From UHGV virus genome UHGV-1474357: a DNA stretch of 40,754 nt; one strand, given 5' to 3'. The notes under the pieces are model-generated. The model was not told the origin of the DNA. It did not search any database and saw nothing but the letters and a program-made list of their open reading frames with translations. The translations under genes and the position numbers were made by a program. The stretch is from a virus. The number at the start of each line of letters is the position of its first letter. The stretch's first letter is position 1. Shown here piece by piece: positions 216 to 35,261 of this stretch.

Positions 216-230
216 TTACCTTAAAGGTAT
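216..230. promoter_or_regulatory. TTACC-N5-GGTAA-type dyad (TTACCTTAAAGGTAT), imperfect
   Basis: Member of the dispersed dyad family; upstream of the integrase start. Overlaps a second palindrome GGTAT-N6-ATACC. Confidence 0.3.
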
Positions 231-272
231 ACTCTCATACCGTCATGAAAATGGTTTCTATACGGGTGAATT

Positions 273-1529
273 GTGCTTACCGATACAAAATTAAAAAACC
301 TCAAGCCGCAGGACAAACTGTACAAGGTCTCCGATCGTGACGGGCTGTATGTAGCTGTGCTTACGTCAGGCACGGTCTCGTTTCGCTATGACTACCGTAT
401 CAACGGTCGCCGCGAAACACTGGTAATCGGGCAGTATGGGCGTGACGGTATCAGCCTGGCAGAAGCGCGAGAAGAACTGATTGCTGCAAAGAAGCTGCTT
501 AAAGCAGGCCAGTCACCGGCTGCGGCTAAACGTGACGGTATTAAAAAGATTCGTGGTGCCGAGACGTTTGCGGTACATACCGACAGTTATATGAAACACG
601 TCATCCTGGCTGACAGTACCCGCGCAATGAAGCAGGCGGTGATCGACCGTGACATACTTCCGGTTCTTGGCAACAAAATGATGGCTGAAATTACCACATC
701 AATGGTTCGTGATTTGTGTGACCGGATTGTCGAACGCGGTGGTCGGGCAACAGCAGTACAGGCCAGGGAGATCATCAGCAGCGTATACCGTCACGCCAAT
801 GACCGTGGTCATGGTTTGTTTAATCCTGCGGCTGACATTAAACCTTCGTCTATCGCCATATTTAAACCACGAGAGCGAACACTGACACCAGAAGAAATTG
901 GCCTGTTCTTCCGCACGCTGGATGCCATTGGTGCTATGGGCACTATGAAAATGGCTTTAAAGCTGGTGCTTATCACCATGGTTCGTAAGGGAGAATTCAC
1001 CAATGCAACGTGGGATGAAATAGATTTTAAAAAATGGACATGGACAATTCCTTCAGACCGCATGAAGGGAAGTCGGGCGCACGTTATTTACCTGCCTAAA
1101 CAGGCACAGGATATATTAGTCGGGTTGCAGATGTGCGCTGGTGGAAGTGAATATCTGGTTCCTGGTCGTTACAATTTCCGGAAGCCATTATCTAATGCCG
1201 CGCTGAACTCTCTGATCGACAGAACGGTGAAAATAATAAATGAAGATGGTGAGCATATTCAGGATTTTACTGTACATGATATGCGCCGTACAGCCAGTAC
1301 ATTGTTGCATGAGGCTGGTTATCCTTCAGACTGGATTGAAAAGGCTCTGGCACACGAGCAGAAAGGTGTGCGCGCCGTATATAACAAAGCGGAATACGCC
1401 AGACAGCGCGCCTACATGTTGCAGCAGTGGGCCGATATGATTGATTCCTGGATTAACGGGGAGCATACGGATCTGATTCCGTTCTCCCCGTCGAAGTTTG
1501 AGAAGTGGATGGAAGACAGTAATAAATAA
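273..1529 (+). CDS. int: Tyrosine site-specific integrase (GTG start)
   Basis: 418-aa ORF; N-terminus LTDTKLKNLKPQDKLYKVSDRDGLYVAV typical of P4/lambda-type integrase arm-binding domain; C-terminal HxxR...Y catalytic-type region (HDMRRTASTLL...YNKAEYARQRAYMLQQW); adjacent to attL. Confidence 0.93.
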   Translation: MLTDTKLKNLKPQDKLYKVSDRDGLYVAVLTSGTVSFRYDYRINGRRETLVIGQYGRDGISLAEAREELIAAKKLLKAGQSPAAAKRDGIKKIRGAETFAVHTDSYMKHVILADSTRAMKQAVIDRDILPVLGNKMMAEITTSMVRDLCDRIVERGGRATAVQAREIISSVYRHANDRGHGLFNPAADIKPSSIAIFKPRERTLTPEEIGLFFRTLDAIGAMGTMKMALKLVLITMVRKGEFTNATWDEIDFKKWTWTIPSDRMKGSRAHVIYLPKQAQDILVGLQMCAGGSEYLVPGRYNFRKPLSNAALNSLIDRTVKIINEDGEHIQDFTVHDMRRTASTLLHEAGYPSDWIEKALAHEQKGVRAVYNKAEYARQRAYMLQQWADMIDSWINGEHTDLIPFSPSKFEKWMEDSNK

Positions 1530-1531
1530 TT

Positions 1532-2191
1532 CTATCCTTCCTGGACTTTGGTAAGCGTCAGATTTCCGCAGAACACTGCGCCGGTGTCGATGTACATTTG
1601 GTTTGCATACACCAGTGGGTGATGTGCTGGCGTATGACCGAAGATGAACAAATCGGCACCGGTTATCTCCGAGACAATACCGTCCTGCGCGTCGCTAACC
1701 CGCTCACGATTCCATATCACCATTTCTTCCGGTACTGGCTTATCGAATGCGTATTCGTTGTGCGGGTAGTCTGCGTGGCAGATGACGACCTTCTTATTGC
1801 CGGTAACCAGTTCGATAATCATCGGGAGGTTGGTAACCTTTGGCAGAAGGTATTTGAGTTGCACATCCTGCTCAGAATCAAGTTGGTGCCACCATCCACC
1901 GCCGTTTGACATCCAATGTCCGAAACTTCCGCCGTTGACCAGTGCATCCAGCATCATCTGCTCATGGTTGCCACGAACAGCTCGGAACCACGGCATAGTA
2001 ATCAAATCCAGGCATTCGACGTTTTCAGCGCCGCGGTCAACAAGGTCACCAACGGAAATAAGCAAATCGCGCGCCGGGTCGAATGAAACTTTGTCGAGTT
2101 CGTTCATCAGCAGCGTGTAGCACCCATGCAGATCGCCGACGACGAAGATATTGCACCAGTCAGCGCCATTGATGCGTTGATATAGGTTCAT
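1532..2191 (-). CDS. Ser/Thr protein phosphatase (calcineurin-like metallophosphoesterase, lambda PP-like)
   Basis: Motifs [20 protein letters not shown]. Start set at internal ATG (MNLYQRING...) because ATG 2191-2189 overlaps the upstream TGA 2190-2188 (ATGA coupling). Confidence 0.85.
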
Positions 2192-2838
2192 GCTGCACGC
2201 TCCCGCCCCTGGTTGTCTGTTGGTGACAGCGGAGCATTGCTGAATGCATTTGTTAATCCGCCGATATCCAACGCGTATCCAGGGTGTAGTTGCACTGCCG
2301 GGTCTTCGCACTGATTACCCCAAACATCGAAGCCATGAGACGTCTGGCGGGCGAACAGTTCAATGCGAGAAACATCGCCTAATAATTGCACAAGTTTTTC
2401 ACGAACGATATCTGGCTTTCTTGAATGCTCAAGCCGCGGTGCGGTAAATGACTGAACGATCCCTGCATTAATGCGCGTAGGTAGTTTTCCCTTTACCGCA
2501 AACAGGCAATCTTCACTATTGGCGCGAGTCATGTGTCCCATACCCATAACCAGTTTATCTGGTTGTCGACTACCACATTTTATCCACGTGAAGCCCTTCA
2601 TCGTCATCAGACGGAATCCCCAGGCTTCAACAACTTTTAGTGCTTCGAGTGGTTGTGTTGGCACCCACCACATGGCCAACAGACAGTTTTCATCGGCCAA
2701 ATCCCACACAGGAAGGCGGCAGATATCCAGCACACTCATAACCGGATATTTAAAACCGGCACCGCGATTACCATCTGCGGCTTTGTCCCGGTATACCCAG
2801 GGTGGATCTGCATAGATTAGTGTGTATTTCTTAGTCAT
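2188..2838 (-). CDS. DNA N6-adenine methyltransferase, MT-A70 family
   Basis: Catalytic motif IYADPPW near N-terminus. ATG at 2838 chosen; an alternative GTG start at 2850 is possible. Confidence 0.8.
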
Positions 2839-3130
2839 AAACCACCCCACAACATCCTATGCCGCTATAGTCGCCACGGCGAAGGCCGTTACCTTTTGTG
2901 ATACATTGGTCCCTGCGAACCGCGATCCTTGCACGTTCAACATCACCAGAAGCAACATCCATACACTGAAGCCAAAGGTGAGCGGCAATGCGGAATTGCC
3001 CTTTTTTCTCTCTTTCAATCGCGCGTTTTTCGATCTCTATCGCCGCAGGAGTAACGGCGACAATCTTTGACGGACTGCGCATTGAAACCTTATTCATGTG
3101 ATATTTTTCAAGTCGGCTTAACTTTCTCAC
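2831..3130 (-). CDS. Hypothetical protein (99 aa, GTG start; alternative ATG at 3097)
   Basis: ORF co-oriented with the leftward operon; AGAGGG about 9 nt upstream of GTG 3130; no recognisable domain. Confidence 0.4.
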   Translation of the reverse strand: MRKLSRLEKYHMNKVSMRSPSKIVAVTPAAIEIEKRAIEREKKGQFRIAAHLWLQCMDVASGDVERARIAVRRDQCITKGNGLRRGDYSGIGCCGVVYD

Positions 3131-3239
3131 TTAATCCAACCCTCTCTGAAAATTAATGCCAGCAGATAAAGCCATGCTGAAACAGAGGCCAGGAATAAGT
3201 ACCATCCTGACCATTTGCTCCAGTGCCTTAGCAGCGCAC

Positions 3240-3488
3240 TCATGCAGCGTTGCTCACGGGACGATATACACGTTGCTGAACAGGAGGCTTTTTACCCTGG
3301 AACTCTGCCGGGCTTGCTGCCTGACGTTCATCAAGCCAACGCTCAACTTCATCACGGTTCCATGCGCAGCGTTTATCGGTGATATACCAGCGTTTAGGAA
3401 ATTCCCCTGCGCGCTCCATACGGTCGATAGTGCTCCATGACAGTGGCACCACCGCCAGGAGTTCTTTCTTACCTAATGCACCTTTCAT
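3240..3488 (-). CDS. AlpA-family DNA-binding protein, putative excisionase
   Basis: Sequence LLAVVPLSWSTIDRMERAGEFPKRWYITDKRCAWNRDEVERWL matches the AlpA/Xis winged-helix family; strong SD AGAGAGG before the ATG. Confidence 0.8.
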   Translation of the reverse strand: MKGALGKKELLAVVPLSWSTIDRMERAGEFPKRWYITDKRCAWNRDEVERWLDERQAASPAEFQGKKPPVQQRVYRPVSNAA

Positions 3489-3537
3489 GAATACCTCTCT
3501 TGGTTGCAGTGCGGCGCACGTGGCGCCGCGGTGGTGG

Positions 3538-4479
3538 TTACATAGATGTTTCGTTTAATTCTTCCCGACGAACGCTGTAAACGTCGGTTGCTTTTGCCAG
3601 CAGTTCGTCATCATCTGAAAGTTTTTGTGCAATGTATTTGTAAGCCTTATCCAGTTCGGAGACAGTGCTGTAATTCATCGCTGCGCTGGTAAAGGCCATC
3701 AGCATTTCTTCTGGATCACGGCTGTCCGATTTACGCGTTTGCTCATCAGGCTTTTTCGCTGGTTTAGCGTTGATCAGACTGTTCATTCCCGCAGCAGTGG
3801 TCGTTTGCGGAGTAATGTCTCGCTCAACGCGCGGTGCCGTTTCCTGTAATTCGTCTGGGGTGTAGACGCCCATGATTACGTCAGGACAGTGCAGGCGAGA
3901 CCAGCGTTTTGTCGCAAGGTATGCGAGTTGTTGTTTCGGATCACTGGCCCAAAGTGTGGAGTTTCTTACCTGTGCTTGAGACAGCATTAACTCAAGCACT
4001 CGAGGTTGATCCTCGCCCTTCATGGTTGCCCATACGCGAACACCGCAGCCTTCTTCGTCTTTTAGAGTCCAGCCTGGTGCGATATATGGATTGCCGTTTT
4101 TGGATGTTTTCTCAACAAACTTACCGATCACGCGTTCCCACGGCCCGAACCACTCGTAGTTGATGCGATCTTTTGTTGGCGACATCGTTGAGATAACTGC
4201 GTTTACTAATTGGGCTTCATAACCTAGCGTGCCGTTCACAACATGGGTTTTCTGAGCCACGGCAAACGGGTTCATTCCCCACTGCGCAGCCTGCATTGCC
4301 ACGGCCATGCAATCAGCTGGTTTCCCGGCGAGGTGCGCCGGTACCGTTACGCGGCTTTGCGCCATTACCTCGGCGAATTTCATCAGTTGGTTCAAGCCGT
4401 CTGGGCTGAAAATAGTTGCAGCAGTTCCAGCGATTGCTGTGTCTACTGGTGCGTTGATGTTTGCGATGTCGTTGCTCAT
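3538..4479 (-). CDS. recT: RecT-family single-strand annealing protein
   Basis: 313-aa product with RecT-like core (MAVAMQAAQWGMNPF...GYEAQLVNAV). Start ATG 4479-4477 overlaps the upstream gene stop (ATGA). Confidence 0.8.
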   Translation of the reverse strand: MSNDIANINAPVDTAIAGTAATIFSPDGLNQLMKFAEVMAQSRVTVPAHLAGKPADCMAVAMQAAQWGMNPFAVAQKTHVVNGTLGYEAQLVNAVISTMSPTKDRINYEWFGPWERVIGKFVEKTSKNGNPYIAPGWTLKDEEGCGVRVWATMKGEDQPRVLELMLSQAQVRNSTLWASDPKQQLAYLATKRWSRLHCPDVIMGVYTPDELQETAPRVERDITPQTTTAAGMNSLINAKPAKKPDEQTRKSDSRDPEEMLMAFTSAAMNYSTVSELDKAYKYIAQKLSDDDELLAKATDVYSVRREELNETSM

Positions 4480-5297
4480 ATGTACATATCCTGTTTGCGT
4501 GCCCACTCAGGGCGTTTAATGATTTCCACACCGCCCCATTCATCATTGATGCGGCATTCGTGATAGGTATTCAGATCCCGGCGGAACAGAGCGTGCCCGG
4601 CATCGACATCCGGCGCATCCAGCCCGAACACGCGTACCGGATACCGACCACAATCAATGCTTTCGCTCACGGCAAGAAAGAAAAAACCATGCGGCTGACC
4701 AGTAACCCTCATTGCGCCTTCGCGGTACATTGCGTCCTGCACGTGGTAGCGGAATTCCTCGATGTGACGTGCAAAACGGTCCATATCTGCAACCTTTTTC
4801 ACGTCGACGATCACGTTGTGCTCGTTCAGCCATTTGTCTGGACGAATTCGGCACAACTCACCCGTCTCTTCATCGTTCCAGTACATTGATGCTTCGCAGT
4901 AACCAGGTGCTTCCAGCATCCAGCGTGCCGCCGGGTGAGCCATTGCGCTATCACGCATCAGCTCCAGTTTCCGCCACTGCTCGGCATCAAGTACCGTAAT
5001 CCCCATATCCGCTACATCACGAAGAAATGCTTCTTCGTCAGCTTTACCTTGTTTCGTCCGACGATCGAACTTCGGTGAAACAATGAAGCGTTTGTCGAAT
5101 TCTCCAGGCTCCAGAAGCAGACAGTGCAATGCGGTTCCCATATCCAGTGCAGACTTTTTCTCTTCGTCTTCTGGTGCTGCCTGAACCCATTTAAGAAGCG
5201 CCGGATTCTTGGCAACCATGTCCAGTTGCGACTTACTCACGCCGTCACCGGCGTGGTAGTCTTCGTTGCTGATGTCGAAATAAATTCCCGGTTTCAT
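4476..5297 (-). CDS. PD-(D/E)XK-type exonuclease (RecE/DUF3799-like partner of RecT)
   Basis: N-terminus MKPGIYFDISNEDYHAGDGVSKSQL characteristic of the exonuclease-VIII-like family; positioned immediately upstream of recT, translationally coupled. Confidence 0.75.
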   Translation of the reverse strand: MKPGIYFDISNEDYHAGDGVSKSQLDMVAKNPALLKWVQAAPEDEEKKSALDMGTALHCLLLEPGEFDKRFIVSPKFDRRTKQGKADEEAFLRDVADMGITVLDAEQWRKLELMRDSAMAHPAARWMLEAPGYCEASMYWNDEETGELCRIRPDKWLNEHNVIVDVKKVADMDRFARHIEEFRYHVQDAMYREGAMRVTGQPHGFFFLAVSESIDCGRYPVRVFGLDAPDVDAGHALFRRDLNTYHECRINDEWGGVEIIKRPEWARKQDMYI

Positions 5298-5593
5298 GCC
5301 GCGTCCCTCTGCCCATCAAGCTGATCAGCCAGATCCCAGCGGGCGATAATTGCCATTGCCTCGCGCCGGTAGGCATCCATTAGTTCTTCGAACTCAGGGC
5401 TGTCTTTAGCGGCCTCCAGTACTTCCTGGCGAACGCCTTTAACTGTTACAACGTCGAAAGTTGATGCCAGTTGATGAAGCCGGATACTCTCAATCAGTTC
5501 AACTTGTCGGTCATATAGCTGTTCTGACAGACGGTAGTCCTTGTCGAATGCCAGCATGATTTTTTGAAGATTTTTCTGCTGATTAACGTTCAT
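5294..5593 (-). CDS. Hypothetical protein (99 aa)
   Basis: ORF in leftward operon; start MNVNQQ... at ATG 5593; stop overlaps exonuclease start. Confidence 0.55.
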   Translation of the reverse strand: MNVNQQKNLQKIMLAFDKDYRLSEQLYDRQVELIESIRLHQLASTFDVVTVKGVRQEVLEAAKDSPEFEELMDAYRREAMAIIARWDLADQLDGQRDAA

Positions 5594-5595
5594 TA

Positions 5596-5748
5596 TCAGC
5601 CCTCCCATATCTCGTTATCGTTGGCTACATCGCGAGCTTCTTTGCTGACGAAAGCCCACTTAATGCCTTCCTGTAAGGTGCGGAACTTCCAGCTCATGAA
5701 TCCGCATGCAGTAACGCAGTACCAACCGTTGATGATTTTCCACTGCAT
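5596..5748 (-). CDS. Hypothetical small protein (50 aa), first gene of leftward operon
   Basis: ATG 5748 preceded by GAGGT SD; stop TGA directly abuts next start (TGATAATG). Below the 60-aa ORF-track cutoff, found by manual translation. Confidence 0.35.
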   Translation of the reverse strand: MQWKIINGWYCVTACGFMSWKFRTLQEGIKWAFVSKEARDVANDNEIWEG

Positions 5749-5829
5749 AACTTGTTACCTCGGTCTGTTACCGTTGAGGTAATAATTATGCGTATATGGT
5801 TTGATGTCAATAGATATGAGTTAAAAAAA

Positions 5830-5844
5830 TTACCCGTTAGGTAA
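5830..5844. promoter_or_regulatory. TTACC-N5-GGTAA dyad (TTACCCGTTAGGTAA), candidate left operator
   Basis: Perfect dyad arms; sits just upstream of a minus-strand TTGACA -35-like hexamer (about 5813-5818) at the head of the leftward early operon. Confidence 0.45.
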
Positions 5845-5855
5845 TCGAATAGGCA

Positions 5856-5880
5856 ATAAAAAAGCCGCCATAAGGCGGCT
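5856..5880 (-). terminator. Intrinsic terminator downstream of repressor gene
   Basis: Hairpin AGCCGCC-ATAA-GGCGGCT followed on the minus strand by TTTTTTATT. Confidence 0.6.
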
Positions 5881-5901
5881 TACTTACTGAAAAATATGGT
5901 T

Positions 5902-6486
5902 TTATTGTTTGTTTTTTTCGTTCTGGTTGATGACAAATTCAATGTAACTTTCGATCTTTGCTTTCTCGGTTTCGGGTAACAATGCGTAGCGCGAGCGATC
6001 ATAGTTGATGGTCGCAGGGTCGTGCGGGTGAATCAGTAATTCATAGCCGTGACGCCCGAATGCGGATGCAACATTCTCCAGGGTGGAAATGGAAACGCTG
6101 ACCTCATTGTTTAACAGGCGGCTGATTGTCACCTGGGCTACGCCGGATGCGCGGTGAAGTTTTCCCTGTGTTGAAAGGTCGCGGCTTTCGCTCATCCAGC
6201 GTTCCAGGTTGTGAGCCGCCAGCTGGCCAATGTCGCTTGGGCCGACAGGCTGAAAACCTTCCTGAGAAAGCGAGCGATCGATATCAAGCCAGTTACGGGG
6301 TTTATTGGCGGCAGCTTCAATTTTTCGTGCAACCTGGTCGCCGATAACCTTCTTGCCAAGAGCCCAGCGGTTTACCAGATTTGCCTGAGTTCCAAGTTTT
6401 TCAGCCATCCGCGTCTGAACACCATTGAATTCACGGTCGATCAAGTCGTTGAGATTTTGCCTGCGGACGTCCTGGATACTTTTCAT
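5902..6486 (-). CDS. Prophage repressor (CI-like), two HTH-like segments, no S24 peptidase domain
   Basis: 194 aa; HTH-like segments (QTRMAEKLGTQANLVNRWALGKK and VAQVTISRLLNNEVSVSISTLENVASAFG); divergent from the Cro-like gene; no Ala-Gly/Ser-Lys LexA-like autocleavage module recognisable. Confidence 0.75.
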   Translation of the reverse strand: MKSIQDVRRQNLNDLIDREFNGVQTRMAEKLGTQANLVNRWALGKKVIGDQVARKIEAAANKPRNWLDIDRSLSQEGFQPVGPSDIGQLAAHNLERWMSESRDLSTQGKLHRASGVAQVTISRLLNNEVSVSISTLENVASAFGRHGYELLIHPHDPATINYDRSRYALLPETEKAKIESYIEFVINQNEKNKQ

Positions 6487-6541
6487 TTTCTGGAAAATCG
6501 CCTCATATATGAATCAGTAGATGATTCAATTTAAAGCAATA

Positions 6542-6556
6542 TTACCCAACAGGTAA
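6542..6556. promoter_or_regulatory. TTACC-N5-GGTAA dyad (TTACCCAACAGGTAA), candidate right operator 1
   Basis: Perfect dyad arms in the repressor/cro intergenic region. Confidence 0.5.
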
Positions 6557-6589
6557 ATGCACCCCACAGGTAACTATCCTTGATTTTTG

Positions 6590-6604: not shown

Positions 6605-6640
6605 ATATTTATTATCTGAAATAAATATCAGGCAATAGCT

Positions 6641-30700: not shown

Positions 30701-31183
30701 ATCTTCGCACAGCATAACAGGGTGCTGGTATCTGGTATCCAGCAGGGCGATGCTGCATTCTATCTTGGTGCGCTTGGCACGATTGCGCTTGGCTCAATGG
30801 TCTATATGATGAAACAGAAGTTAAGCGGTCGCGATATTGACTACAGCTGGAATAACCTTGTGAAAGAGGGGATCGACCGGGGCGGAATGCTTGGCTGGCT
30901 CTCTGAGCCGCTGAATACCGTTGAGAACATAAGCGGTGGTAGGTTTGGTCTTGGCGCGATGTTTGGTGCGCCTCCGGTATCAAGGTTTCAGAGTCGTAAT
31001 GCTATTGGTGCTTTACTTGGTCCTACCTTTGATCTTGGCGGTGATGCCGCGACGGTTGCGAATGGTGTACTTAACGGAGAATTTGACAGCCAGCAAACCC
31101 ACGCGGTCCGTAAAATGCTACCTTTTCAGAACCTGTGGGCGATATCACCATTACTAAATAAAGTTGAAGAGCAGATGAAATAG
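27794..31183 (+). CDS. Internal virion/ejection protein D-like (T7 gp16-like), putative
   Basis: 1129 aa; synteny and size; hydrophobic segment near C-terminus (AFYLGALGTIALGSMVYMM). Confidence 0.6.
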   Translation: MPIYEQDPKELLGEDIQQIAAPDDSNFYMETPSLLSAVNPFTSDQRVQRSRQAAFRIDNTLGSFIASAPFSQFDRVEGYNPFDNDAADIKGYEDFADSFINSGSHEETMAIKHRIDKQRTDREYLSEMGGAGTISSLAMGMIDPVNVAAMFIPVGAVARGGSIAETAGRFALANAAGGGVSEAALQATQEARSPMESVSNVVVDALVGGILGAGAQLLAGPSAREAVVNSVGNHLRGMDSPQSIGAAQVFNTTLDQEQLAGLGLANKTLSVTPAGRLAQSPSLVSRQINQQLAENNYFFAKNDEGLATFTAVETKIKQYDAMLYKQMEATRDAYQQYSKSVSARGVKRMNFIDFNEAVGMAMRRGDQSDIPEVSQAAARIRPIFEITKARMQELGILPEDIDVVTAKSYLPRIYKFDKILSDRTEFRGRIANWIQGISAKGADKAGQRIERINSLLKTAEESAPRADALASEIAEAEKWSGKKILLMEELDKRNKLISQETDTQARLTRIEKELAETSSEKLQARMMKESSDLKTRLDDIAQAKSELPVYQRHMELLDNPRKYRSELRRLQKRANSTTRLNASRERALKQMEPLSREEAEDAADEIVNKIIGAPSGLVPADIIPERLVGRAGFTKSRTLLIPDERIEDFLESDVNYIMESYLRQVAPEIELTAQFGRKDMGEQIRQVSEEYTRLIKEAKTPKRRAVLEKQREADIRDITAMRDRLLGTYGAPQDPRSFFVRAGRVARNINFLRLLGGMTVSAATDLMRPMMQHGLRKSLGPMVSMLKNMDSVKIATRDLREMAVGLDYVLSTRTKAIADLTDPYSRRSAAERGLNWMTQKFGNWTLMNQWNSALKSWSGMIVQSRILDAARQVSAGGTLSKSEMRKMAQVGINEDVLRRIGEQFGKHGEDMDGLLTGHSHLWDDRFAREIFQSAVLKDVDSVIVTPGVGDTPLFFSKEGWKMITQFKTFIFAQHNRVLVSGIQQGDAAFYLGALGTIALGSMVYMMKQKLSGRDIDYSWNNLVKEGIDRGGMLGWLSEPLNTVENISGGRFGLGAMFGAPPVSRFQSRNAIGALLGPTFDLGGDAATVANGVLNGEFDSQQTHAVRKMLPFQNLWAISPLLNKVEEQMK

Positions 31184-31184
31184 G

Positions 31185-32036
31185 ATGAAAAAAATAAATT
31201 TGTTTTTTGGCATAGTGCTTTCAATAGTCTCTGTAAATCCTACAGCTGCCAGTTCATTGCAATGCAATAAGGATAACTTTGATGCATGCAAAACGTGTGA
31301 ACAATTATCAAAGGCTATCGACTTAAAAGAACCTAATCGTGGCGATTACTATAGAGGGGCTTTATGGAATGGGCTTTACGCCTCTTATGTAATTAATTGC
31401 CCTGTGGTTGCTGAGAAGTTACTGAGCCATGGTGCTATACCATCATATGGCGGATATATGGGGTCTATGGGGGCGGTTCTGACAGGAAAATGGCCTCATA
31501 ACAATGAATCAATAAATCTTTCATGGGCAGATTTGCTTATAAAACATGGATTTGATGTTAATAGGCATACGGGGAATTATAAATCAGCTACTGAAGTATG
31601 GGCTATAGATAAAAAACAGATTGAATATAAGTCAGTTTTTGACAAGTTAATTCAATCCAGCGAAGTAAAACCACTCGATCCTTCAAGAAATTTAGAATGG
31701 TGTGCGTCTGAAGGGTATCGCTCAGTTGTCGTTTATTCCCTTAACTCATGTATAGAAAATGCTATAAAACGTTTGGATGATGGTGTTTCTTCAGCGTCTG
31801 ATATTTCATCAGCAGCCGTAAATTCCTGTACTAGCGATGTAGAAAATTTCAATAAGCATTTGGCATGCAAAGCAGCTGTTAAAGAAAACTCTGATAAAGA
31901 GAGAAGCGACGTTTACCAGTTATTAACCAGTGATAGTCAAATGAATAAAAATGTTATTGATATGCTGAAGGAAAGAAATATTGAAACGGTTCTTGAATTT
32001 AGAGCTGAAAATCGATCAGCGAAAACTGCACAGTGA
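31185..32036 (+). CDS. Secreted protein with ankyrin-like repeats (AT-rich cargo gene)
   Basis: N-terminal signal peptide (MKKINLFFGIVLSIVSVNPTAAS); repeat-like segments LLSHGAIPS and LLIKHGFDVNRHTGN; clearly lower GC than flanking virion genes; strong terminator follows. Confidence 0.55.
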   Translation: MKKINLFFGIVLSIVSVNPTAASSLQCNKDNFDACKTCEQLSKAIDLKEPNRGDYYRGALWNGLYASYVINCPVVAEKLLSHGAIPSYGGYMGSMGAVLTGKWPHNNESINLSWADLLIKHGFDVNRHTGNYKSATEVWAIDKKQIEYKSVFDKLIQSSEVKPLDPSRNLEWCASEGYRSVVVYSLNSCIENAIKRLDDGVSSASDISSAAVNSCTSDVENFNKHLACKAAVKENSDKERSDVYQLLTSDSQMNKNVIDMLKERNIETVLEFRAENRSAKTAQ

Positions 32037-32057
32037 TCAAACAGGCCGCTTTCGCGG
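32033..32057 (+). terminator. Intrinsic terminator after secreted ankyrin-like gene
   Basis: AGGCCGC-TTTC-GCGGCCT followed by TGTTTTT. Confidence 0.7.
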
Positions 32058-32065
32058 CCTTGTTT

Positions 32066-32227
32066 TTAACGAATGCCACCGCCACCCGGGCGGGAATCCG
32101 CAGAACGCCCACCGCAGCGGGAGCCGTCAGCAGCAGTGTCGCTGTCGTGCTGACAACGACCGGCAAAGGCCTGAGTTGAAGCTACCAGAGACAACAAAAC
32201 GAACAGTGCAGCAAATGCTTTTTTCAT
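32066..32227 (-). CDS. Putative small secreted protein (53 aa)
   Basis: Internal ATG gives MKKAFAALFVLLSLVASTQAFA signal-peptide-like N-terminus; -35/-10-like TTGACG / TATAGA upstream; weak SD, so low confidence. Confidence 0.3.
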   Translation of the reverse strand: MKKAFAALFVLLSLVASTQAFAGRCQHDSDTAADGSRCGGRSADSRPGGGGIR

Positions 32228-32300
32228 TGTGAAATTTCCATCTATAAGCCACCTCAATGTGGCGTCAATGAGTGTAGCACTGACTTTTGTTTCGTCCATA

Positions 32301-32323
32301 AAAAAGCCCTCAGTGCGGGCTTA
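32301..32323 (-). terminator. Intrinsic terminator after the two-gene cassette
   Basis: Minus-strand hairpin AAGCCCGCACTGAGGGCTT followed by TTTTT. Confidence 0.5.
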
Positions 32324-32698
32324 ATTAACTTCGAGGATAATAGAATCTTTAGACTTGAATCCCACTTTCCTCATGGCTGTAATGACGTTTTGGATAACCC
32401 ACGTTTTCCCAAACTCTCTTTCGTGTACAATGGCGCAAGGAAAATGAAGGGCGCTTTTGTTGCACTTTATGGTGAAAGTTGTACCTTCAGCAAAATCCAA
32501 AACAGTCTGCAGATGTGCAGATATAAACGATTTAAACACATCTTCAAGCTCAGCAAGAGTAATTGGCGGTTTGTTCCTCTCGTCGTTCAGGCGTTCATAT
32601 GCTGCGTGAAATGAAAAGTGAATTCTTGCCGCATCTTCTTGCAAGATCTCGTTAATCTCATCCTCAAGATCAATGAGTTGTTGTTCTGTTATAGACAT
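32321..32698 (-). CDS. Hypothetical protein (125 aa), second gene of overlapping two-gene cassette
   Basis: ATG 32698 overlaps the upstream gene end by 10 nt; acidic helical N-terminus; AT-rich. Confidence 0.55.
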   Translation of the reverse strand: MSITEQQLIDLEDEINEILQEDAARIHFSFHAAYERLNDERNKPPITLAELEDVFKSFISAHLQTVLDFAEGTTFTIKCNKSALHFPCAIVHEREFGKTWVIQNVITAMRKVGFKSKDSIILEVN

Positions 32699-32907
32699 AG
32701 ATAACGGGAGGTCGCCTCACTTATTTTTTGATTTAATTCATCATCATTGGATGCACGTACAGTAGCAACATGCTTACTTTGGCGTAGGGTCCCAATTCTG
32801 ATATCAAATTCTTCATTATCGAAAGAGTCAACGAAAACAGCTTTACCAGTTTCTGGATGGTAAAAAGAGGCATAGTTTTGGTTGAGTTGCATATCAAATT
32901 TAAACAT
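32689..32907 (-). CDS. Hypothetical protein (72 aa), first gene of overlapping two-gene cassette
   Basis: Strong SD GGGAGGA before ATG 32907; dyad operator about 118 bp upstream. Confidence 0.55.
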   Translation of the reverse strand: MFKFDMQLNQNYASFYHPETGKAVFVDSFDNEEFDIRIGTLRQSKHVATVRASNDDELNQKISEATSRYLCL

Positions 32908-33024
32908 ATCATCCTCCCATACGGGAACAGACGTGACTTACATACGGTGTGATTTTGACTAGTTAACTTTCTGCAGCAAAACCATCACGGTAACTACAAA
33001 CTAAAATGTTACAAATCAACTTTC

Positions 33025-33039
33025 TTACCTTTGGGGTAA
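33025..33039. promoter_or_regulatory. TTACC-N5-GGTAA dyad (TTACCTTTGGGGTAA)
   Basis: Perfect arms; on the minus strand it sits 5 nt upstream of a TTGATT -35-like hexamer ahead of the two-gene cassette. Confidence 0.45.
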
Positions 33040-33065
33040 TAGTACGCTATTCACCTGCAATCTGT

Positions 33066-33090
33066 ACAGAATTATTTAAAGGCACATCCC
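33066..33090 (-). terminator. Hairpin after antirepressor-like gene
   Basis: Minus-strand GGCACAGGGATGTGCC followed by TTTAAATAATT. Confidence 0.4.
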
Positions 33091-33105
33091 TGTGCCGCCG
33101 TTCTG

Positions 33106-33762
33106 TCAGAAGACCCCTGCCTTGTCGTTGATGTATTCCGCGTGGGTCTGGATATCACGCAGGCATTTACTCACACCGACGATGTAGCAGAACATGGTAG
33201 TCAGCTCCGCCGCCGCGCCCGATACGTCGTGCCCGTCGTCCTGTAACTGGTTCAGCAGATTCATCAGCAGTGAGTTCTCCGTCAGGCCGAGAACACCAGA
33301 TGGGGAATGAATCAGGCTGCGGTAGCCGGGCTTCAGTGGGGCGCTGTATTCTTTTTTGTCTTCCAGCTTGATCGCCTCCATAATGGCGGGCATGAAGCCT
33401 GACAAGACCTTCTCCACTTTTGTTTCTTGTTGTCTTAAACGTTTCTCGCATTCAATGAAGTAGCGTCGCACCTGGCGACCTTTTTCGTTACGCTCGACCA
33501 TCGCCAGCTCTTTGGCTGTATCAAGGGTGAGGTGGTACTCTTTGCGGTTGTGGCCGCCTCTACCAGATGTTTGCTTTCCCAAATTGGAAAGCAAAATATA
33601 GTCTTGATTTTCAATGAATTCGTATTCTGATATGCGATTTGTAATCCATGCTGCAAACACCTTTTTAACACCTAAAAAAGCGTGCAGATCGCGGGCATTA
33701 CAAAGTAGGGCTGTTTCGTTAGATATAGTGCCGTTGAATACGGGGATGAGTTGAGCGTTCAT
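33106..33762 (-). CDS. Antirepressor-like protein (Bro-N/AntA-like N-terminal domain, Ant C-terminal domain)
   Basis: 218 aa; N-terminus [27 protein letters not shown] and central [26 protein letters not shown] resemble phage antirepressor families; GGAG SD; C-terminal 70 aa homologous to the small gene at 34913-35170. Confidence 0.7.
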
Positions 33763-33920
33763 GATGGCGTCTCCACTTAGCGAATTACATCACCACCGCT
33801 GAGACCAATCAGATGGTGGTGAACTGAACGGAGTTGGTCTTACCGGCCTAAGTGGTACCGGCGTCCTTTCGGACCCCCATTCAGCCCACCATAATTCTGG
33901 CATGACTGTGCTATACGCAT

Positions 33921-34030
33921 AAAAAAACCACGTCTGGCGTGGTATGCGCCACTTAGTAATCCGGGAGACCAATCCCGGCACTGGATTTTGCCAGTGCCCG
34001 ATTACTATGGCACAAGAGGAGTGCAATGTA
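33921..34030 (-). ncRNA. Candidate structured leader / small RNA with intrinsic terminator upstream of antirepressor gene
   Basis: Minus-strand hairpins GGCACTGG-CAAAAT-CCAGTGCC and CCGGGA-TTGGTC-TCCCGG, then terminator ACCACGCC-AGA-CGTGGT plus TTTTTTT (33921-33943); promoter-like TTGATT / TTATCA hexamers at about 34081-34049 and a dyad operator at 34034-34048; no credible ORF. Confidence 0.3.
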
Positions 34031-34033
34031 AAT

Positions 34034-34048
34034 TTACCGCAAAGGTAA
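34034..34048. promoter_or_regulatory. TTACC-N5-GGTAA dyad (TTACCGCAAAGGTAA)
   Basis: Perfect arms; directly abuts the -10-like hexamer of the putative leftward ant promoter. Confidence 0.45.
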
Positions 34049-34126
34049 TGATAAACGCGAAGAAATATTAAAATCAACCGTATTTGGTTGATTGCGTTTA
34101 ACGCTTGATCACCTGAAAGCAAGATA

Positions 34127-34141
34127 TTACCTTTAAGGTAA
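34127..34141. promoter_or_regulatory. TTACC-N5-GGTAA dyad (TTACCTTTAAGGTAA)
   Basis: Perfect arms; 20 nt upstream of ATG 34162. Confidence 0.45.
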
Positions 34142-34161
34142 TGTTATTGTGAGGAAAAGCA

Positions 34162-34890
34162 ATGGAAGTTTTCTGGATAGTTGTTGGTGTGGTTGCGGTG
34201 ATTATTTACGTTATCAACCAGAACAAGACTAAGATCTCTGATCGTACGGTCGTTAATCATAACAAAACGATAAAGACCGAAGATGGGGAGATAACGATTA
34301 ATCGTACACAGGTGATAGAACACACCTCTACTCAGTTTCAAAAAACTGGAGGTAATGCGCCTAATATTTCCGCACCTCCTGCTTATGATAGTGCGGTAAT
34401 CCAGACATATTATAAACAGCAGGAGTTAGCAAAAGAGAGGCAACTGATTCAGCCAAAGCCGTTTACAGCTGAGCTTCCACCTGGAGTGTCAACGCGTCCG
34501 GCATATCATGGAAGATTCCCTGGTGATGACATATCGTCTCAGTCATCTAAAAAAGCACCTCAGGCAGTATCAGAGCCAGCAAGAATACCTTCTGTATCGC
34601 CGCCAAAAGAAGAATCAGCTAACAGAGTTTCAAGTGGTAGCAAGCAGTGCTTGCGATGCAGAATAAACCTACCATATGAAAAATTCAGGAAATCGTCAAA
34701 AAATCCAGATGGATTGACTAAGTGGTGTGCAAGGTGTCTCGATGGCCCAAAGAATACACGCCATATGAAGTGGTGCCCAATTTGTAATGTCCGCAGAAAA
34801 CGAACAAGCTTTTACCCTAATAATCAAAATGCGGATGGCTTAATGGCATGGTGCAAAACGTGCTGGGACGAGCACAAAGCGAAACGATAG
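34162..34890 (+). CDS. Membrane-anchored protein with repeated zinc-ribbon-like motifs
   Basis: N-terminal TM helix (VFWIVVGVVAVIIYVI); C-terminal repeats of C-x2-C...NPDGL..WC..C (CLRCRINLPYEKFRKSSKNPDGLTKWCARC; CPICNVRRKRTSFYPNNQNADGLMAWCKTC); AT-rich; bidirectional terminator follows. Confidence 0.6.
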   Translation: MEVFWIVVGVVAVIIYVINQNKTKISDRTVVNHNKTIKTEDGEITINRTQVIEHTSTQFQKTGGNAPNISAPPAYDSAVIQTYYKQQELAKERQLIQPKPFTAELPPGVSTRPAYHGRFPGDDISSQSSKKAPQAVSEPARIPSVSPPKEESANRVSSGSKQCLRCRINLPYEKFRKSSKNPDGLTKWCARCLDGPKNTRHMKWCPICNVRRKRTSFYPNNQNADGLMAWCKTCWDEHKAKR

Positions 34891-34914
34891 GCCGCTCTTG
34901 CGGCCTTTAAATTT
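34890..34914. terminator. Bidirectional intrinsic terminator between convergent genes
   Basis: GGCCGC-TCTT-GCGGCC flanked by A/T runs; stem nearly identical to the terminator at 32033-32057. Confidence 0.6.
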
Positions 34915-35170
34915 ACCGGGTTTGTTTTCGTAATTGTTCGGCACAATAGTCGAGATGTGTTTGCAGATCCTGCATAGACATCTGTGAGCTGGTGACGTAG
35001 TTAATCAGTGCAGTCAGTTCGGCAAGTGGGCCATCGACATTAAATCCATCCTTATCGAGATCCCGGAGTAATTTCATCAAGTGCGATCCCTCCACCAGTG
35101 ACCTGACGCCTCCCGGCGTGTGAATCCTTTCGGTAAATCCGTCTTCCAGTGGATAGTGATACTGCTGCAT
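34913..35170 (-). CDS. Small protein (85 aa) homologous to the antirepressor C-terminal domain; candidate SOS-controlled antirepressor
   Basis: About 40% identity by eye to residues about 150-218 of the 33106-33762 product (shared PL, IH.P.GV, LM.LL, DG..V.G, AELT, D.QTH..Y); GGAG SD; LexA box 19 bp upstream of the ATG. Confidence 0.6.
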   Translation of the reverse strand: MQQYHYPLEDGFTERIHTPGGVRSLVEGSHLMKLLRDLDKDGFNVDGPLAELTALINYVTSSQMSMQDLQTHLDYCAEQLRKQTR

Positions 35171-35188
35171 CTTATCTTCTCCATGCAA

Positions 35189-35210
35189 TAACTGTATGTT
35201 TATACAGTAA
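35189..35210. promoter_or_regulatory. LexA (SOS) box TAACTGTATGTTTATACAGTAA
   Basis: Matches CTGT-N8-ACAG with AT-rich spacer and TA flanks (consensus TACTGTATATATATACAGTA); contains TATAAA -10-like hexamer on the minus strand; positioned 19 bp upstream of ATG 35170. Confidence 0.6.
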
Positions 35211-35246
35211 CAAATAATTTGTTTGCTATCCAGCACGTTTTGCAAA

Positions 35247-35261
35247 TTACCCGAAAGGTAA
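35247..35261. promoter_or_regulatory. TTACC-N5-GGTAA dyad (TTACCCGAAAGGTAA)
   Basis: Perfect arms; between the LexA-boxed small gene and the tailspike gene. Confidence 0.45.

What the first reader, a model, noticed from the sequence alone, without database searches (positions are those of the whole stretch)
216..35261. Dispersed TTACC-N5-GGTAA dyad family (at least 12 copies) marks promoters across the whole prophage, including accessory genes
The 15-bp dyad occurs with perfect arms at 5830, 6542, 8866, 8928, 16043, 33025, 34034, 34127 and 35247, and with one mismatch at 216, 6590 and 6927. Every copy is intergenic. Several sit in a fixed relation to sigma70-like hexamers (TTGATT -35 recurs at 6580, 8900, and on the minus strand near 33019 and 34081; the dyad abuts the -10 at 8923-8942 and 34034-34054). 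Two copies occupy the classical operator position between the divergent repressor and cro genes. A short palindrome this frequent and this strictly intergenic is unlikely by chance in 40 kb. It implies one regulator, most simply the repressor at 5902-6486, directly controls the immunity promoters, the replication promoter, a promoter before the portal block and at least four promoters in the accessory island.
Basis: seen in the sequence. Interest (0 to 1): 0.75.

Follow-up and report, generated by a model that had tools for sequence, protein, structure and literature searches.

The report
Known repressor operators of epsilon15-like prophage
The repeated TTACC-N5-GGTAA palindrome is real and far above chance, but it is the repressor-binding site family already annotated in the sister phage epsilon15, here seen in a phiV10-like E. 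coli prophage, so it is a correct rediscovery rather than a new system.

Summary
The window holds 11 perfect and 4 one-mismatch TTACC-N5-GGTAA dyads, where shuffles give 0.00 and 0.68, and all are non-genic. The window is a complete phiV10/epsilon15-like (Uetakevirus) prophage with att sites at 66-82 and 40700-40716. The same dyad is the most over-represented 5+5 palindrome in all five other Uetakevirus genomes examined, from four host genera, and sits at orthologous positions. The epsilon15 RefSeq record already annotates seven of these sites as repressor-binding sites. The window repressor (5902-6486) is 100% identical to phiV10 p40 and aligns full-length with the solved SPC32H Rep (E=4e-42). 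Distant repressors sharing only its N-terminal domain carry related dyads whose half-site changes with the recognition helix. Details added here:
- Operator pairs 62, 93 or 125 bp apart bracket promoters, with one operator fused to the -10 hexamer.
- One operator sits on the predicted start of a promoter that precedes the isrK and C4 RNAs and an antirepressor gene.
- A LexA box lies 55 bp from the operator upstream of the small ant gene.
- The "accessory island" is the antirepressor and tailspike region.

The parts
66..40716 (.). Complete phiV10/epsilon15-like (Uetakevirus) prophage between the 17-bp att core repeats ATTGAGTGGGAATGATT (66-82 and 40700-40716)
   Evidence: The att core sequence is quoted in PMC9782041.
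5902..6486 (-). Rep, the prophage repressor (194 aa). It has an N-terminal HTH DNA-binding domain, a middle HTH-like domain and a C-terminal tetramerisation region, and no S24 peptidase domain.
   Evidence: 100% identical to phiV10 p40. E=4e-42 full-length to SPC32H Rep, PDB 5D50. Pfam and PHROG hits. NLVNRW invariant in 5 genera-spanning homologues.
6641..6871 (+). Cro-like small regulator, divergent from rep. It may bind the same operators.
   Evidence: phrog_35 'transcriptional repressor'. 58-84% identical across the genus.
216..230 (.). Operator (one mismatch, GGTAT) in the int promoter. The variant arm forms the -10 hexamer TATACT (228-233).
   Evidence: The same GGTAT variant lies upstream of int in all five other genomes.
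5768..5782 (.). Promoter-proximal operator of the leftward early promoter P_L. It is centred on the predicted start site, and the -10 hexamer AATTAT (5787-5782) is fused to it.
   Evidence: Footprint alignment A4.
5830..5844 (.). Upstream operator of P_L, 62 bp from 5768 and just downstream of the rep terminator (5881-5862).
   Evidence: The spacing is 62 bp in 5 genomes and 63 bp in BUCT711.
5782..5810 (-). P_L core promoter: -35 TTGACA 5810-5805, 17-nt spacer, -10 AATTAT 5787-5782
   Evidence: CTATTGAC and ATTATTACC are invariant in 6 genomes.
6542..6556 (.). Operator in the rep-cro intergenic region, on the rep side
6559..6573 (.). Degenerate (two-mismatch) middle operator in the rep-cro region, 17 bp from 6542 as in epsilon15 and SPC32H
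6590..6604 (.). Operator (one mismatch) overlapping the -35 hexamer and spacer of the rightward promoter (-35 TTGTTA 6587, -10 TATTAT 6610)
6927..6941 (.). Operator (one mismatch) just after the cro terminator (6893-6912), about 60 bp upstream of the putative replication-operon promoter
   Evidence: Orthologous sites in phiV10, Tyrion and BUCT711.
8866..8880 (.). Upstream operator of the middle-operon promoter, 62 bp from 8928
   Evidence: The spacing is 62 bp in 6 of 6 genomes.
8928..8942 (.). Promoter-proximal operator of the middle-operon promoter (-35 TTGATT 8900-8905, -10 TTTAAT 8923-8928), centred on the predicted start site, 3 nt before ATG 8946
   Evidence: Footprint alignment A3.
12836..12868 (.). 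Two abutting operators (12836-12850 perfect, 12854-12868 one mismatch) between a terminator and the corrected small terminase start (ATG 12871). They cover a weak promoter whose -10 is TACTAT (12831-12836).
   Evidence: The same 18-bp pair occurs in phiV10, epsilon15 and Tyrion. The epsilon15 site is annotated as repressor-binding.
16043..16057 (.). Operator between the tRNA-Arg / p03 region and the gp3-portal block. The best-scoring promoter faces left (-35 16086 or 16079, -10 AATTAT 16062-16057).
   Evidence: Orthologous in all 6 genomes. Annotated as repressor-binding in epsilon15.
33025..33039 (.). Operator downstream of the antA-type gene and upstream of the leftward cargo genes 32907-32321. 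A degenerate partner lies at 32979.
   Evidence: Arms are conserved while spacers differ in three other E. coli prophages.
33106..33762 (-). AntA-type antirepressor whose C-terminal 75 residues resemble the small Ant
   Evidence: Pfam AntA at 4e-26; phrog_377 and phrog_450. 42% identical to the small Ant.
33812..33997 (-). isrK-like RNA (33997-33921, with terminator) and C4 antisense RNA (33896-33812) in the leader of the antirepressor gene
   Evidence: Rfam scores of 67.7 and 61.2 bits, above gathering. The same pair follows the operator in phiV10 and Tyrion.
34034..34048 (.). Operator centred on the predicted start site of the leftward promoter (-35 TTGATT 34077-34072, -10 TATCAT 34053-34048) that lies upstream of isrK, C4 and antA
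34127..34141 (.). Operator 93 bp upstream of 34034 and 21 nt before the rightward cargo gene 34162-34890
   Evidence: Equivalent sites lie 93 or 125 bp from the partner in other prophages.
34913..35170 (-). Small antirepressor Ant (85 aa)
   Evidence: 88% identical to SPC32H Ant. phrog_450.
35192..35207 (.). LexA-box-like CTGTATGTTTATACAG overlapping the putative ant promoter -10 (TACTGT)
   Evidence: The 55-bp offset to the operator is conserved in five genomes and three further prophages.
35247..35261 (.). Operator between the divergent ant gene and the tailspike gene (35366-38485), about -57 from the ant start site and about -70 from the tailspike start site
   Evidence: Annotated as repressor-binding in epsilon15 (19895-19911).

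Best explanation
The dyads (extended consensus ATTACC-N5-GGTAAT) are the operators of the prophage repressor Rep (5902-6486). Rep is a non-cleavable, tetramer-forming HTH repressor of the epsilon15/SPC32H type.

How repression would work. Pairs of N-terminal HTH domains read the two TTACC half-sites. At the leftward early promoter, the middle-operon promoter and the promoter upstream of isrK, C4 and the antirepressor gene, the proximal operator is fused to the -10 hexamer (nnnnAT|TACC) and covers the predicted start site. Bound Rep there would occlude RNA polymerase. A second operator sits exactly 62 bp (or 93 or 125 bp) upstream, close to 6, 9 or 12 helical turns. It probably serves the second DNA-binding pair of the same tetramer. 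At int, and at the rightward promoter in the rep-cro region, the operator lies inside the core promoter. In front of the small terminase gene two abutting operators cover a weak, probably activator-dependent late promoter. In the lysogen one protein would therefore silence every transcription unit directly, with no antitermination cascade needed.

How induction would work. LexA release frees the small ant gene (LexA box 35192-35207). Ant then disassembles Rep, and this also derepresses the second, Rep-controlled antirepressor.

Shown here: the sites, their enrichment, their conservation and geometry, and the homologies. Inferred: binding, looping and the order of events.
For: Enrichment: 11 perfect and 4 one-mismatch sites against 0.00 and 0.68 in shuffles. 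One perfect site in 200 kb of host chromosome. All sites fall in the 8.5% of the window that is non-genic.

Conservation: an unbiased census of all 5+5 dyads puts TTACC-N5-GGTAA first in the window and in phiV10, epsilon15, SPC32H, Tyrion and BUCT711, with 8-11 copies each. The sites are at orthologous positions.

Prior annotation: the epsilon15 RefSeq record marks seven such sites as repressor-binding.

Footprints: the arms, the -35 (CTATTGA), the fused -10 and the 62-bp spacing are invariant while spacers and flanks drift. In other E. coli prophages with different cargo cassettes the arms persist while the spacers differ.

The protein: Rep aligns full-length with SPC32H Rep, PDB 5D50. NLVNRW is invariant and there is no S24 domain.

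Half-site tracks the N-terminal domain: PseuP_224 cI has TTACC-N4-GGTAA three times, JBD68 has N4 variants, Turba has TAACC-N5-GGTTA and an Acinetobacter prophage has TTAGT-N5-ACTAA. Each sits next to the repressor gene, and PseuP_224 has no homologue of the Cro-like protein in the two small ORFs upstream of its cI gene.

Literature held: SPC32H Rep binds palindromic sites as a tetramer, with the DNA-binding pairs drawn from different dimers (PMC9638917). It has DBD, MDD and TetDloop domains, with the paired MDDs about 100 Å apart (PMC9986798). Overexpressing the identical repressor of phage ZX5 cuts holin and endolysin mRNA by more than 99.9% (PMC9782041).

Induction module: Ant is 88% identical to SPC32H Ant. 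The LexA box is at a conserved offset from the operator.
Against: No binding experiment exists for the phiV10-type Rep, and none can be done here. The primary papers on epsilon15 and SPC32H operators are not in the held library. What was shown experimentally for the dyad itself therefore rests on the GenBank annotation and on my memory.

The one-mismatch class is not enriched over host density by count alone.

Several sites do not overlap a convincing core promoter: 33025, 35247, 6927, and 16043 on the plus strand. Simple occlusion cannot be the whole story.

Promoters were predicted from consensus only, and the generic scan finds no excess of promoter-like sites.

The Cro-like protein is even better conserved than Rep and may share the sites.

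Spacings of 17-18, 46-48 and 76 bp are not integral helical turns.
Confidence: 0.83

Rival explanations
1. The dispersed dyads are mainly the targets of the Cro-like protein (6641-6871) or are shared with it. It would act as a lytic-phase repressor that shuts early and accessory promoters, with Rep using only the immunity-region sites.
For: The Cro-like protein is classed with transcriptional repressors (phrog_35). It is more conserved across the genus than Rep, at 58-84% against 43-78% identity, with an invariant AGTTSHYIQ-HLT stretch, as expected for a conserved DNA target. In lambda-type switches Cro and CI share operators (general knowledge).
Against: TTACC-type dyads accompany distant repressors that share only the Rep N-terminal domain and have no homologue of the Cro-like protein in the neighbouring ORFs. 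The half-site covaries with the Rep-type recognition helix. The epsilon15 annotators assign the sites to the repressor. Shared binding is not excluded.
Confidence: 0.1
2. The dyads at upstream positions (-57 to -70; sites 6927, 16043, 35247 and the -62 partners) are activator sites. Either a late or middle transcription activator (for example the 12408-12749 regulator or the PerC-like protein) binds them, or Rep itself acts there as a class-I-type activator.
For: The late promoters have poor -35 hexamers (12809 ATGGCG; weak plus-strand hits at 16043 and 35247). A centre near -61.5 is the classical class I activator position (general knowledge). A regulator gene lies immediately upstream of the terS operators (phrog_536).
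Against: The same dyad sits on the predicted start sites of P_L, the middle-operon promoter and the promoter upstream of isrK, C4 and antA, and inside the int and rightward core promoters. Those are repressor positions. The dyad also occurs at early promoters and in the immunity region. No evidence links the other regulators to this sequence.
Confidence: 0.05
3. The palindrome works at the RNA level, as a hairpin for termination, processing or stability, or it is a compositional or chance artefact.
For: Each site can form a 5-8 bp hairpin. Several lie next to terminators. The epsilon15 record annotates RNase III sites in some of the same intergenic regions.
Against: The hairpins are weak, at -1.7 to -6.2 kcal/mol, and no terminator-like site reported by the scan overlaps a dyad. 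Upstream members of the pairs lie between a terminator and the next promoter, so they are probably not transcribed. The arms are conserved as sequence, with no compensatory changes. Chance is excluded by shuffles and by the host sample.
Confidence: 0.02

Closest known systems
Repressor operators of Salmonella phages epsilon15 (gp38) and SPC32H (Rep-Ant switch); genus Uetakevirus
   Same: The same 17-bp palindrome ATTACC-N5-GGTAAT occupies the same genomic positions: before int, two or three sites at P_L, the rep-cro region, the pair before the middle operon, before terS, before gp3/portal, and between ant and the tail fibre gene. Rep is homologous over its full length. Ant is 88% identical. 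A LexA box lies at the ant promoter. From memory, not checkable here: Kropinski et al. 2007 gave the consensus ATTACCWDWWNGGTAAT, Kim & Ryu 2013 showed LexA control of ant, and Kim et al. 2016 solved the Rep and Rep-Ant structures.
   Different: The phiV10-type Rep is only about 42% identical overall. The window and phiV10, Tyrion and other E. coli prophages carry extra operators at an isrK/C4-antirepressor cassette and before cargo genes, which epsilon15 and SPC32H lack. There is an extra operator after the cro terminator. The window has no site before its lysis cassette, whereas epsilon15 has one.
Phage P1 C1 repressor with its many dispersed operators, including the one at the immI operon (c4-icd-ant)
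   Same: One repressor directly controls many scattered operons, among them an antirepressor operon whose leader encodes a C4 antisense RNA. The window has a C4 Rfam hit of 61 bits directly behind an operator-covered promoter and in front of an ant gene. The P1 facts are from general knowledge.
   Different: The P1 operator is an asymmetric 17-mer and C1 is an unrelated protein. P1 is a plasmid prophage and a myovirus. No icd homologue was looked for here.
Mycobacteriophage L5 gp71 'stoperators' and Streptomyces phiC31 repressor conserved inverted repeats
   Same: About 10 to 30 copies of one short repressor site lie in short intergenic gaps across the whole genome, extending repression beyond the immunity region (general knowledge).
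   Different: L5 sites are asymmetric, depend on orientation and block elongation inside operons. Here the sites are palindromic and sit at promoters, after terminators. The proteins are unrelated.
Lambda CI/Cro with OL and OR
   Same: A tripartite operator lies between divergent repressor and cro-like genes. The design is cooperative and multi-operator, and a looping-competent oligomeric repressor is involved.
   Different: Lambda has only two operator clusters and controls late genes through the N and Q antitermination cascade. CI is cleaved with the help of RecA, whereas this Rep has no S24 domain and is predicted to be inactivated by an antirepressor.

Membership tests
Uetakevirus (epsilon15/SPC32H-type) Rep-operator regulon | Repressor homologous to epsilon15 gp38 / SPC32H Rep: N-terminal HTH domain, middle dimerisation domain and C-terminal tetramerisation region, with no S24 autocleavage domain | tested here: met
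   E=4e-42 over residues 1-190 to PDB 5D50. Pfam finds HTH domains only. 69 invariant columns in a 5-genome alignment.
Uetakevirus (epsilon15/SPC32H-type) Rep-operator regulon | Palindromic operator ATTACC-N5-GGTAAT, multi-copy, at the positions annotated as repressor-binding in epsilon15 | tested here: met
Uetakevirus (epsilon15/SPC32H-type) Rep-operator regulon | Small antirepressor Ant next to the tailspike gene, with a LexA box at its promoter | tested here: met
   Ant is 88% identical to SPC32H Ant. There is a perfect CTGT-N8-ACAG at 35192-35207, at a conserved 55-bp offset from the operator.
Uetakevirus (epsilon15/SPC32H-type) Rep-operator regulon | Genome synteny with the genus and integration at the guaA att core | tested here: met
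   97-98% identity to phiV10 over most early and structural genes. The att core occurs at both ends. That this core is the attP of phiV10 and epsilon15 in guaA is stated in PMC9782041.
Uetakevirus (epsilon15/SPC32H-type) Rep-operator regulon | Physical binding of Rep to the dyads and repression of the adjacent promoters | not testable with these tools
   Only indirect support. Overexpressing the identical ZX5 repressor abolishes late-gene mRNA (PMC9782041). SPC32H Rep binds palindromic DNA as a tetramer (PMC9638917).
P1 immI-like antirepressor module (repressor-controlled promoter, C4 antisense RNA, ant) | C4 antisense RNA gene upstream of, and co-oriented with, an antirepressor gene | tested here: met
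   Rfam RF01695 at 61.2 bits against a gathering score of 45, at 33896-33812. The AntA-domain protein is at 33762-33106. The same arrangement occurs in phiV10 and Tyrion.
P1 immI-like antirepressor module (repressor-controlled promoter, C4 antisense RNA, ant) | C4 target sites in the ant mRNA leader and an icd-like ORF | not tested
   Not examined.
Mycobacteriophage L5-type stoperators | Asymmetric site with an orientation bias relative to transcription, placed inside operons | tested here: not met
   The sites are perfect palindromes. They lie after terminators and on or next to promoters.
Intrinsic terminators | G+C-rich stem followed by a T-run | tested here: not met
   No dyad coincides with a terminator-like site in the scan. 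The hairpins are -1.7 to -6.2 kcal/mol.

The most novel reading that the evidence does not exclude
The operators may be wired for promoter micro-loops and a feed-forward induction switch, which, as far as I could check, has not been described.

Paired operators lie at fixed, helically phased distances: 62 bp in all six genomes at two promoters, and 93 or 125 bp at the antirepressor cassette. These are close to 6, 9 and 12 turns. One member of each pair is fused to the -10 hexamer. A single Rep tetramer, with its two DNA-reading pairs about 100 Å apart, could then clamp each promoter in a small loop.

Rep would also directly repress a second antirepressor. This is a protein with an AntA, Bro-N or ORF6N N-terminal domain; in the window its C-terminal part resembles Ant. 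Its gene lies behind the isrK and C4 RNAs. LexA-triggered Ant would thus unlock a self-reinforcing burst of antirepressor.

Mobile cargo cassettes (YafO toxin-antitoxin, HNH-like genes) join the Rep regulon through their own operator.
Probability: 0.35. Interest if true: 0.5.

Novelty: already known. Interest (0 to 1): 0.25.

Why it matters
As a discovery it matters little. The dispersed dyad is the repressor operator family of epsilon15-like phages, and it is already marked as repressor-binding in the epsilon15 reference record.

It does show that a sequence-only reader recovered a real regulon and assigned it to the right protein.

The added anatomy gives concrete, cheap experiments on how a tetrameric, antirepressor-controlled phage repressor silences a whole genome without an antitermination cascade. 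That anatomy comprises the -10-fused operators, the phase-locked pairs, the operator-controlled isrK/C4-antirepressor cassette and the LexA-boxed ant gene.

It also matters for annotation of the many E. coli prophages of this type. In one search, 866 of 5426 complete genomes matched some part of the 2.4-kb antirepressor region; most of those matches are partial.

Tried and rejected
- **Literature.** I tried to read the primary papers: Kropinski 2007 (PMC2698709), Kim & Ryu 2013 (PMC3807360) and Kim 2016 (PMC4983836), by DOI, PMC id and PubMed id. None is held. Full-text searches for the consensus string found nothing, and two broader searches gave only irrelevant hits.
- **Terminator or RNA hairpin.** Rejected: weak hairpins, no overlap with any terminator-like site in the scan, and sequence rather than pairing conservation.
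- **Chance or composition.** Rejected by shuffles and by the host sample.
- **L5-type stoperators.** Rejected because the sites are palindromic and placed at promoters.
- **Methylation or restriction target.** Considered and dropped without a test. Strict intergenic placement and fusion to promoter hexamers fit an operator, not a modification site.
- **Lysis cassette site.** I looked for a site upstream of the lysis genes, where epsilon15 has a perfect one. The window has none with up to 2 mismatches in 38600-38800. That segment was replaced together with the tailspike module.
- **Generic promoter scan.** It shows no overall excess of promoter-like sites, so promoter assignments rest on geometry and cross-genome conservation only.
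- **Covariation within the genus.** This cannot separate Rep from the Cro-like protein, because both are conserved. I therefore went to distant N-terminal-domain relatives instead.

Full report
**1. Observation**

A pattern search finds 11 perfect TTACC-N5-GGTAA dyads, at 5768, 5830, 6542, 8866, 8928, 12836, 16043, 33025, 34034, 34127 and 35247. Four more have one mismatch, at 216, 6590, 6927 and 12854. Dinucleotide-preserving shuffles give 0.00 and 0.68 sites respectively.

Three copies were missed. A two-mismatch copy at 6559 sits where epsilon15 has a perfect middle operator. Flanks extend the consensus to ATTACC-N5-GGTAAT.

In 200 kb sampled from E. coli K-12 there is 1 perfect and 13 one-mismatch sites. 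Perfect sites are therefore about 54-fold denser in the window. The one-mismatch class is not enriched by number alone.

By my gene list 8.5% of the window is non-genic, and all 15 sites lie there. For 12836 and 12854 this needs the small terminase start at ATG 12871. Homology to epsilon15 TerS starts there, and a terminator lies inside the longer ORF.

**2. What the window is**

The window is a complete prophage bounded by the att core ATTGAGTGGGAATGATT at 66-82 and 40700-40716. PMC9782041 gives that core as the attP of phiV10 and epsilon15 in guaA. The early and structural regions are 97-98% identical to phiV10 and phiv142-3. This places it in the genus Uetakevirus (epsilon15-like podoviruses).

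**3. The dyad is genus-wide and already annotated**

A census of every 5+5 palindrome with 0-12 bp spacers puts TTACC-N5-GGTAA first in the window. It is also first in phiV10, epsilon15, SPC32H, Enterobacter phage Tyrion and Klebsiella phage BUCT711, with 8-11 perfect copies each.

Mapping the flanks back to the window shows orthologous positions:
- upstream of int, always with the same GGTAT variant arm;
- a pair or triple at the leftward early promoter;
- two or three sites between rep and the cro-like gene;
- a pair before the middle operon;
- a pair before terS;
- one before the gp3/portal block;
- one between ant and the tailspike gene;
- one before the large antirepressor cassette.

The epsilon15 RefSeq record carries seven 'protein_bind, repressor, lysogeny' features. 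Read out, they are exactly this palindrome. The finding is therefore a rediscovery of the family's predicted operator set. From memory, Kropinski et al. 2007 reported the consensus ATTACCWDWWNGGTAAT. I could not open that paper.

**4. Who binds**

The ORF at 5902-6486 is 100% identical to phiV10 p40 and to the ZX5 repressor (PMC9782041). It aligns over its full length with SPC32H Rep, PDB 5D50 (E=4e-42). It has HTH domains and no S24 peptidase domain. Across five homologues spanning four host genera, NLVNRW in the N-terminal domain is invariant although overall identity falls to 43%.

The Cro-like protein is also conserved, so I looked outside the genus.
- Pseudomonas phage PseuP_224 has a cI with the same N-terminal domain (39% identity, E=1e-12) but an S24-type C-terminus. 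Neither of the two small ORFs upstream of its cI gene is homologous to the Cro-like protein. Three TTACC-N4-GGTAA dyads flank its gene.
- JBD68 has TAACC-N4-GGTAA and TTACC-N4-GGTTC.
- Turba, whose recognition helix differs, has TAACC-N5-GGTTA.
- An Acinetobacter prophage, with a helix that differs again, has TTAGT-N5-ACTAA.

The half-site thus follows the Rep-type N-terminal domain.

Held papers add three points. SPC32H Rep binds palindromic sites as a tetramer, with the DNA-binding pairs contributed by different dimers (PMC9638917). It has DBD, MDD and a looping-type tetramerisation domain, with the paired MDDs about 100 Å apart (PMC9986798). Overexpressing the ZX5 repressor removes more than 99.9% of holin and endolysin mRNA.

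**5. Anatomy at the promoters**

Promoter positions come from consensus scoring and cross-genome footprints.

| Promoter | Strand | -35 | -10 | Predicted start | Operator centres relative to start |
|---|---|---|---|---|---|
| Leftward early (P_L) | minus | TTGACA 5810 | AATTAT 5787-5782 | ~5775 | 5768 at +0; 5830 at -62 |
| Middle operon | plus | TTGATT 8900 | TTTAAT 8923-8928 | ~8935 | 8928 at +0; 8866 at -62 |
| Upstream of isrK, C4, antA | minus | TTGATT 34077 | TATCAT 34053-34048 | ~34041 | 34034 at +0; 34127 at -93 |

In each of these promoters the last base of the -10 hexamer is the first T of TTACC. The outer AT of the extended operator therefore doubles as the end of the -10.

Alignments of six genomes show that both operators, CTATTGA at the -35, the fused -10 and the spacing are invariant while the spacers and flanks vary. 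The pair spacing is 62 bp in 6 of 6 genomes at the middle operon. At P_L it is 62 bp in five genomes and 63 bp in BUCT711.

At the antirepressor cassette the spacing is 93 bp or, in other E. coli prophages, 125 bp. Distances of 62, 93 and 125 bp are 5.96, 8.94 and 12.02 turns at 10.4 bp per turn. This fits same-face cooperative binding or a small loop made by one tetramer. That step is inference.

The other sites:
- At int the operator lies between -35 and -10, and its variant arm GGTAT creates the -10 TATACT. This explains why the 'mismatch' is conserved in all six genomes.
- In the rep-cro region, 6590 overlaps the -35 and spacer of the rightward promoter. Sites 6542 and 6559 lie towards rep.
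- Before terS two abutting operators cover a weak promoter (-10 TACTAT, poor -35) directly after a terminator.
- Sites 6927, 33025 and 35247, and 16043 on the plus strand, do not overlap a convincing core promoter.
- The best promoter at 16043 faces left, towards a tRNA-Arg(TCT) gene at 15644-15720.

**6. The 'accessory island'**

The region from 33 to 35.3 kb is the antirepressor region.

Behind the operator-covered promoter at 34041 lie an isrK-like RNA (33997-33921, with its terminator) and a C4 antisense RNA (33896-33812). Both score above the Rfam gathering threshold. Next comes an AntA-domain protein (33762-33106). Its C-terminal 75 residues are 42% identical to the small Ant. phiV10 and Tyrion have the same operator-isrK-C4 arrangement in front of different antirepressor genes.

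The small Ant (34913-35170) is 88% identical to SPC32H Ant. A perfect LexA-type box lies at 35192-35207 over its putative -10, always 55 bp from the operator.

Other E. coli prophages swap the cargo in this region (Bro-N or ORF6N antirepressors, YafO toxin-antitoxin, an HNH-like gene). They keep four operators with conserved arms and different spacers.

**7. Mechanism proposed**

Rep tetramers would occupy operators at essentially every transcription unit. Each unit is insulated by a terminator. This silences the prophage directly.

DNA damage removes LexA from the ant promoter. Ant then disassembles Rep. All units fire together, including the Rep-repressed second antirepressor, which would reinforce the decision.

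Shown here: the sites, their statistics, conservation, geometry and homologies. Inferred: binding in this phage, looping, feedback, and any role of the upstream-only operators.

**8. Rivals**

- The Cro-like protein as the main binder is not excluded as a co-binder. It is disfavoured as the sole binder.
- An activator-site reading fits a few upstream sites. It does not fit the sites on predicted start sites or inside core promoters.
- RNA hairpin or terminator readings, and chance, are rejected.

**9. Comparison and verdict**

The system belongs to the epsilon15/SPC32H Rep-operator family. Every defining feature I could test is met. Only physical binding is untestable here.

It works like the P1 C1 regulon: many dispersed operators, one of them guarding a C4-ant operon. 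It also resembles the L5 and phiC31 dispersed-operator repressors. It is not a member of any of those families.

The finding is real and correctly interpreted, but it is already known for this family, so interest is low (0.25). The residual novelty lies in the phase-locked, -10-fused operator pairs and in the operator-controlled isrK/C4-antirepressor cassette. I estimate a probability of about 0.35 that these amount to an undescribed looping and feed-forward design.

Noticed in passing
window 15644-15720 (-): A tRNA-Arg(TCT) gene (Rfam 73 bits; ARAGORN). It overlaps ORF 15463-15714 (+), which phiV10 annotates as hypothetical protein p04. That ORF is probably a mis-call. phiV10 and BUCT711 have the same unannotated tRNA, and SPC32H annotates it.
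   Followed up: partly
window 33812-33997 (-): An isrK Hfq-binding sRNA (67.7 bits) and a C4 antisense RNA (61.2 bits) lie in tandem between an operator-covered promoter and an antirepressor gene. This resembles P1 immI and the Gifsy-1 isrK module. It is also present in phiV10 (20278-20463) and Tyrion (21171-21356).
   Followed up: partly
window 33106-33762 (-) and 34913-35170 (-): The prophage has two antirepressor-type proteins. The AntA-domain protein carries a C-terminal domain 42% identical to the small SPC32H-type Ant (same PHROG 450), which suggests that both target Rep.
   Followed up: partly
window 34913-35170 versus 5902-6486: Ant is 88% identical to SPC32H Ant, whereas Rep is only about 42% identical to SPC32H Rep. 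The antirepressor is far more conserved than its presumed target.
   Followed up: no
window 35192-35207: A perfect LexA-box-like CTGTATGTTTATACAG lies over the putative ant -10. Its 55-bp offset to the Rep operator is conserved in the window and seven of the eight other phages and prophages examined; BUCT711 has only a one-mismatch box at a different offset.
   Followed up: partly
window 35290-35317: An invariant GGTAATAGAAT (an operator half-site fused to a TAGAAT -10) preceded by CATATA-GGTTTTT occurs upstream of the tailspike gene in all six genomes. It may be the tailspike promoter with a site for another regulator.
   Followed up: no
window 7492-7644, inside ORF 7238-8071: Six copies of an 18-24 bp iteron (core CCCAAAAACGGGA) plus a 12-bp tandem lie within the replication-initiator gene. 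This is probably the phage origin, as in lambda ori inside gene O.
   Followed up: partly
window 12790-12870; L001 41-121: The phiV10 RefSeq small terminase start (TTG) appears about 27 codons too long. Homology to epsilon15 TerS begins at ATG 12871, and the extension contains a terminator and two operators.
   Followed up: yes
L010 2921-2975 and 3822-3836; L011 1924-1985; L012 1905-2000; L013 1888-2000: Repressors of Pseudomonas and Acinetobacter phages share the Rep N-terminal domain but have different C-termini, including S24. They have related dyads with 4- or 5-bp spacers. The half-site (TTACC, TAACC or TTAGT) changes with the recognition helix.
   Followed up: partly
L014 2264-3287; L016 1804-2743: In other E. 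coli Uetakevirus-like prophages a YafO-family toxin-antitoxin cassette occupies the slot of the window's 34162-34890 gene. It is preceded by a Rep operator 12 nt before its first gene.
   Followed up: no
L004 2605-2669 (-): An int-alpA RNA hit (44 bits) in Enterobacter phage Tyrion. The window has no counterpart.
   Followed up: no
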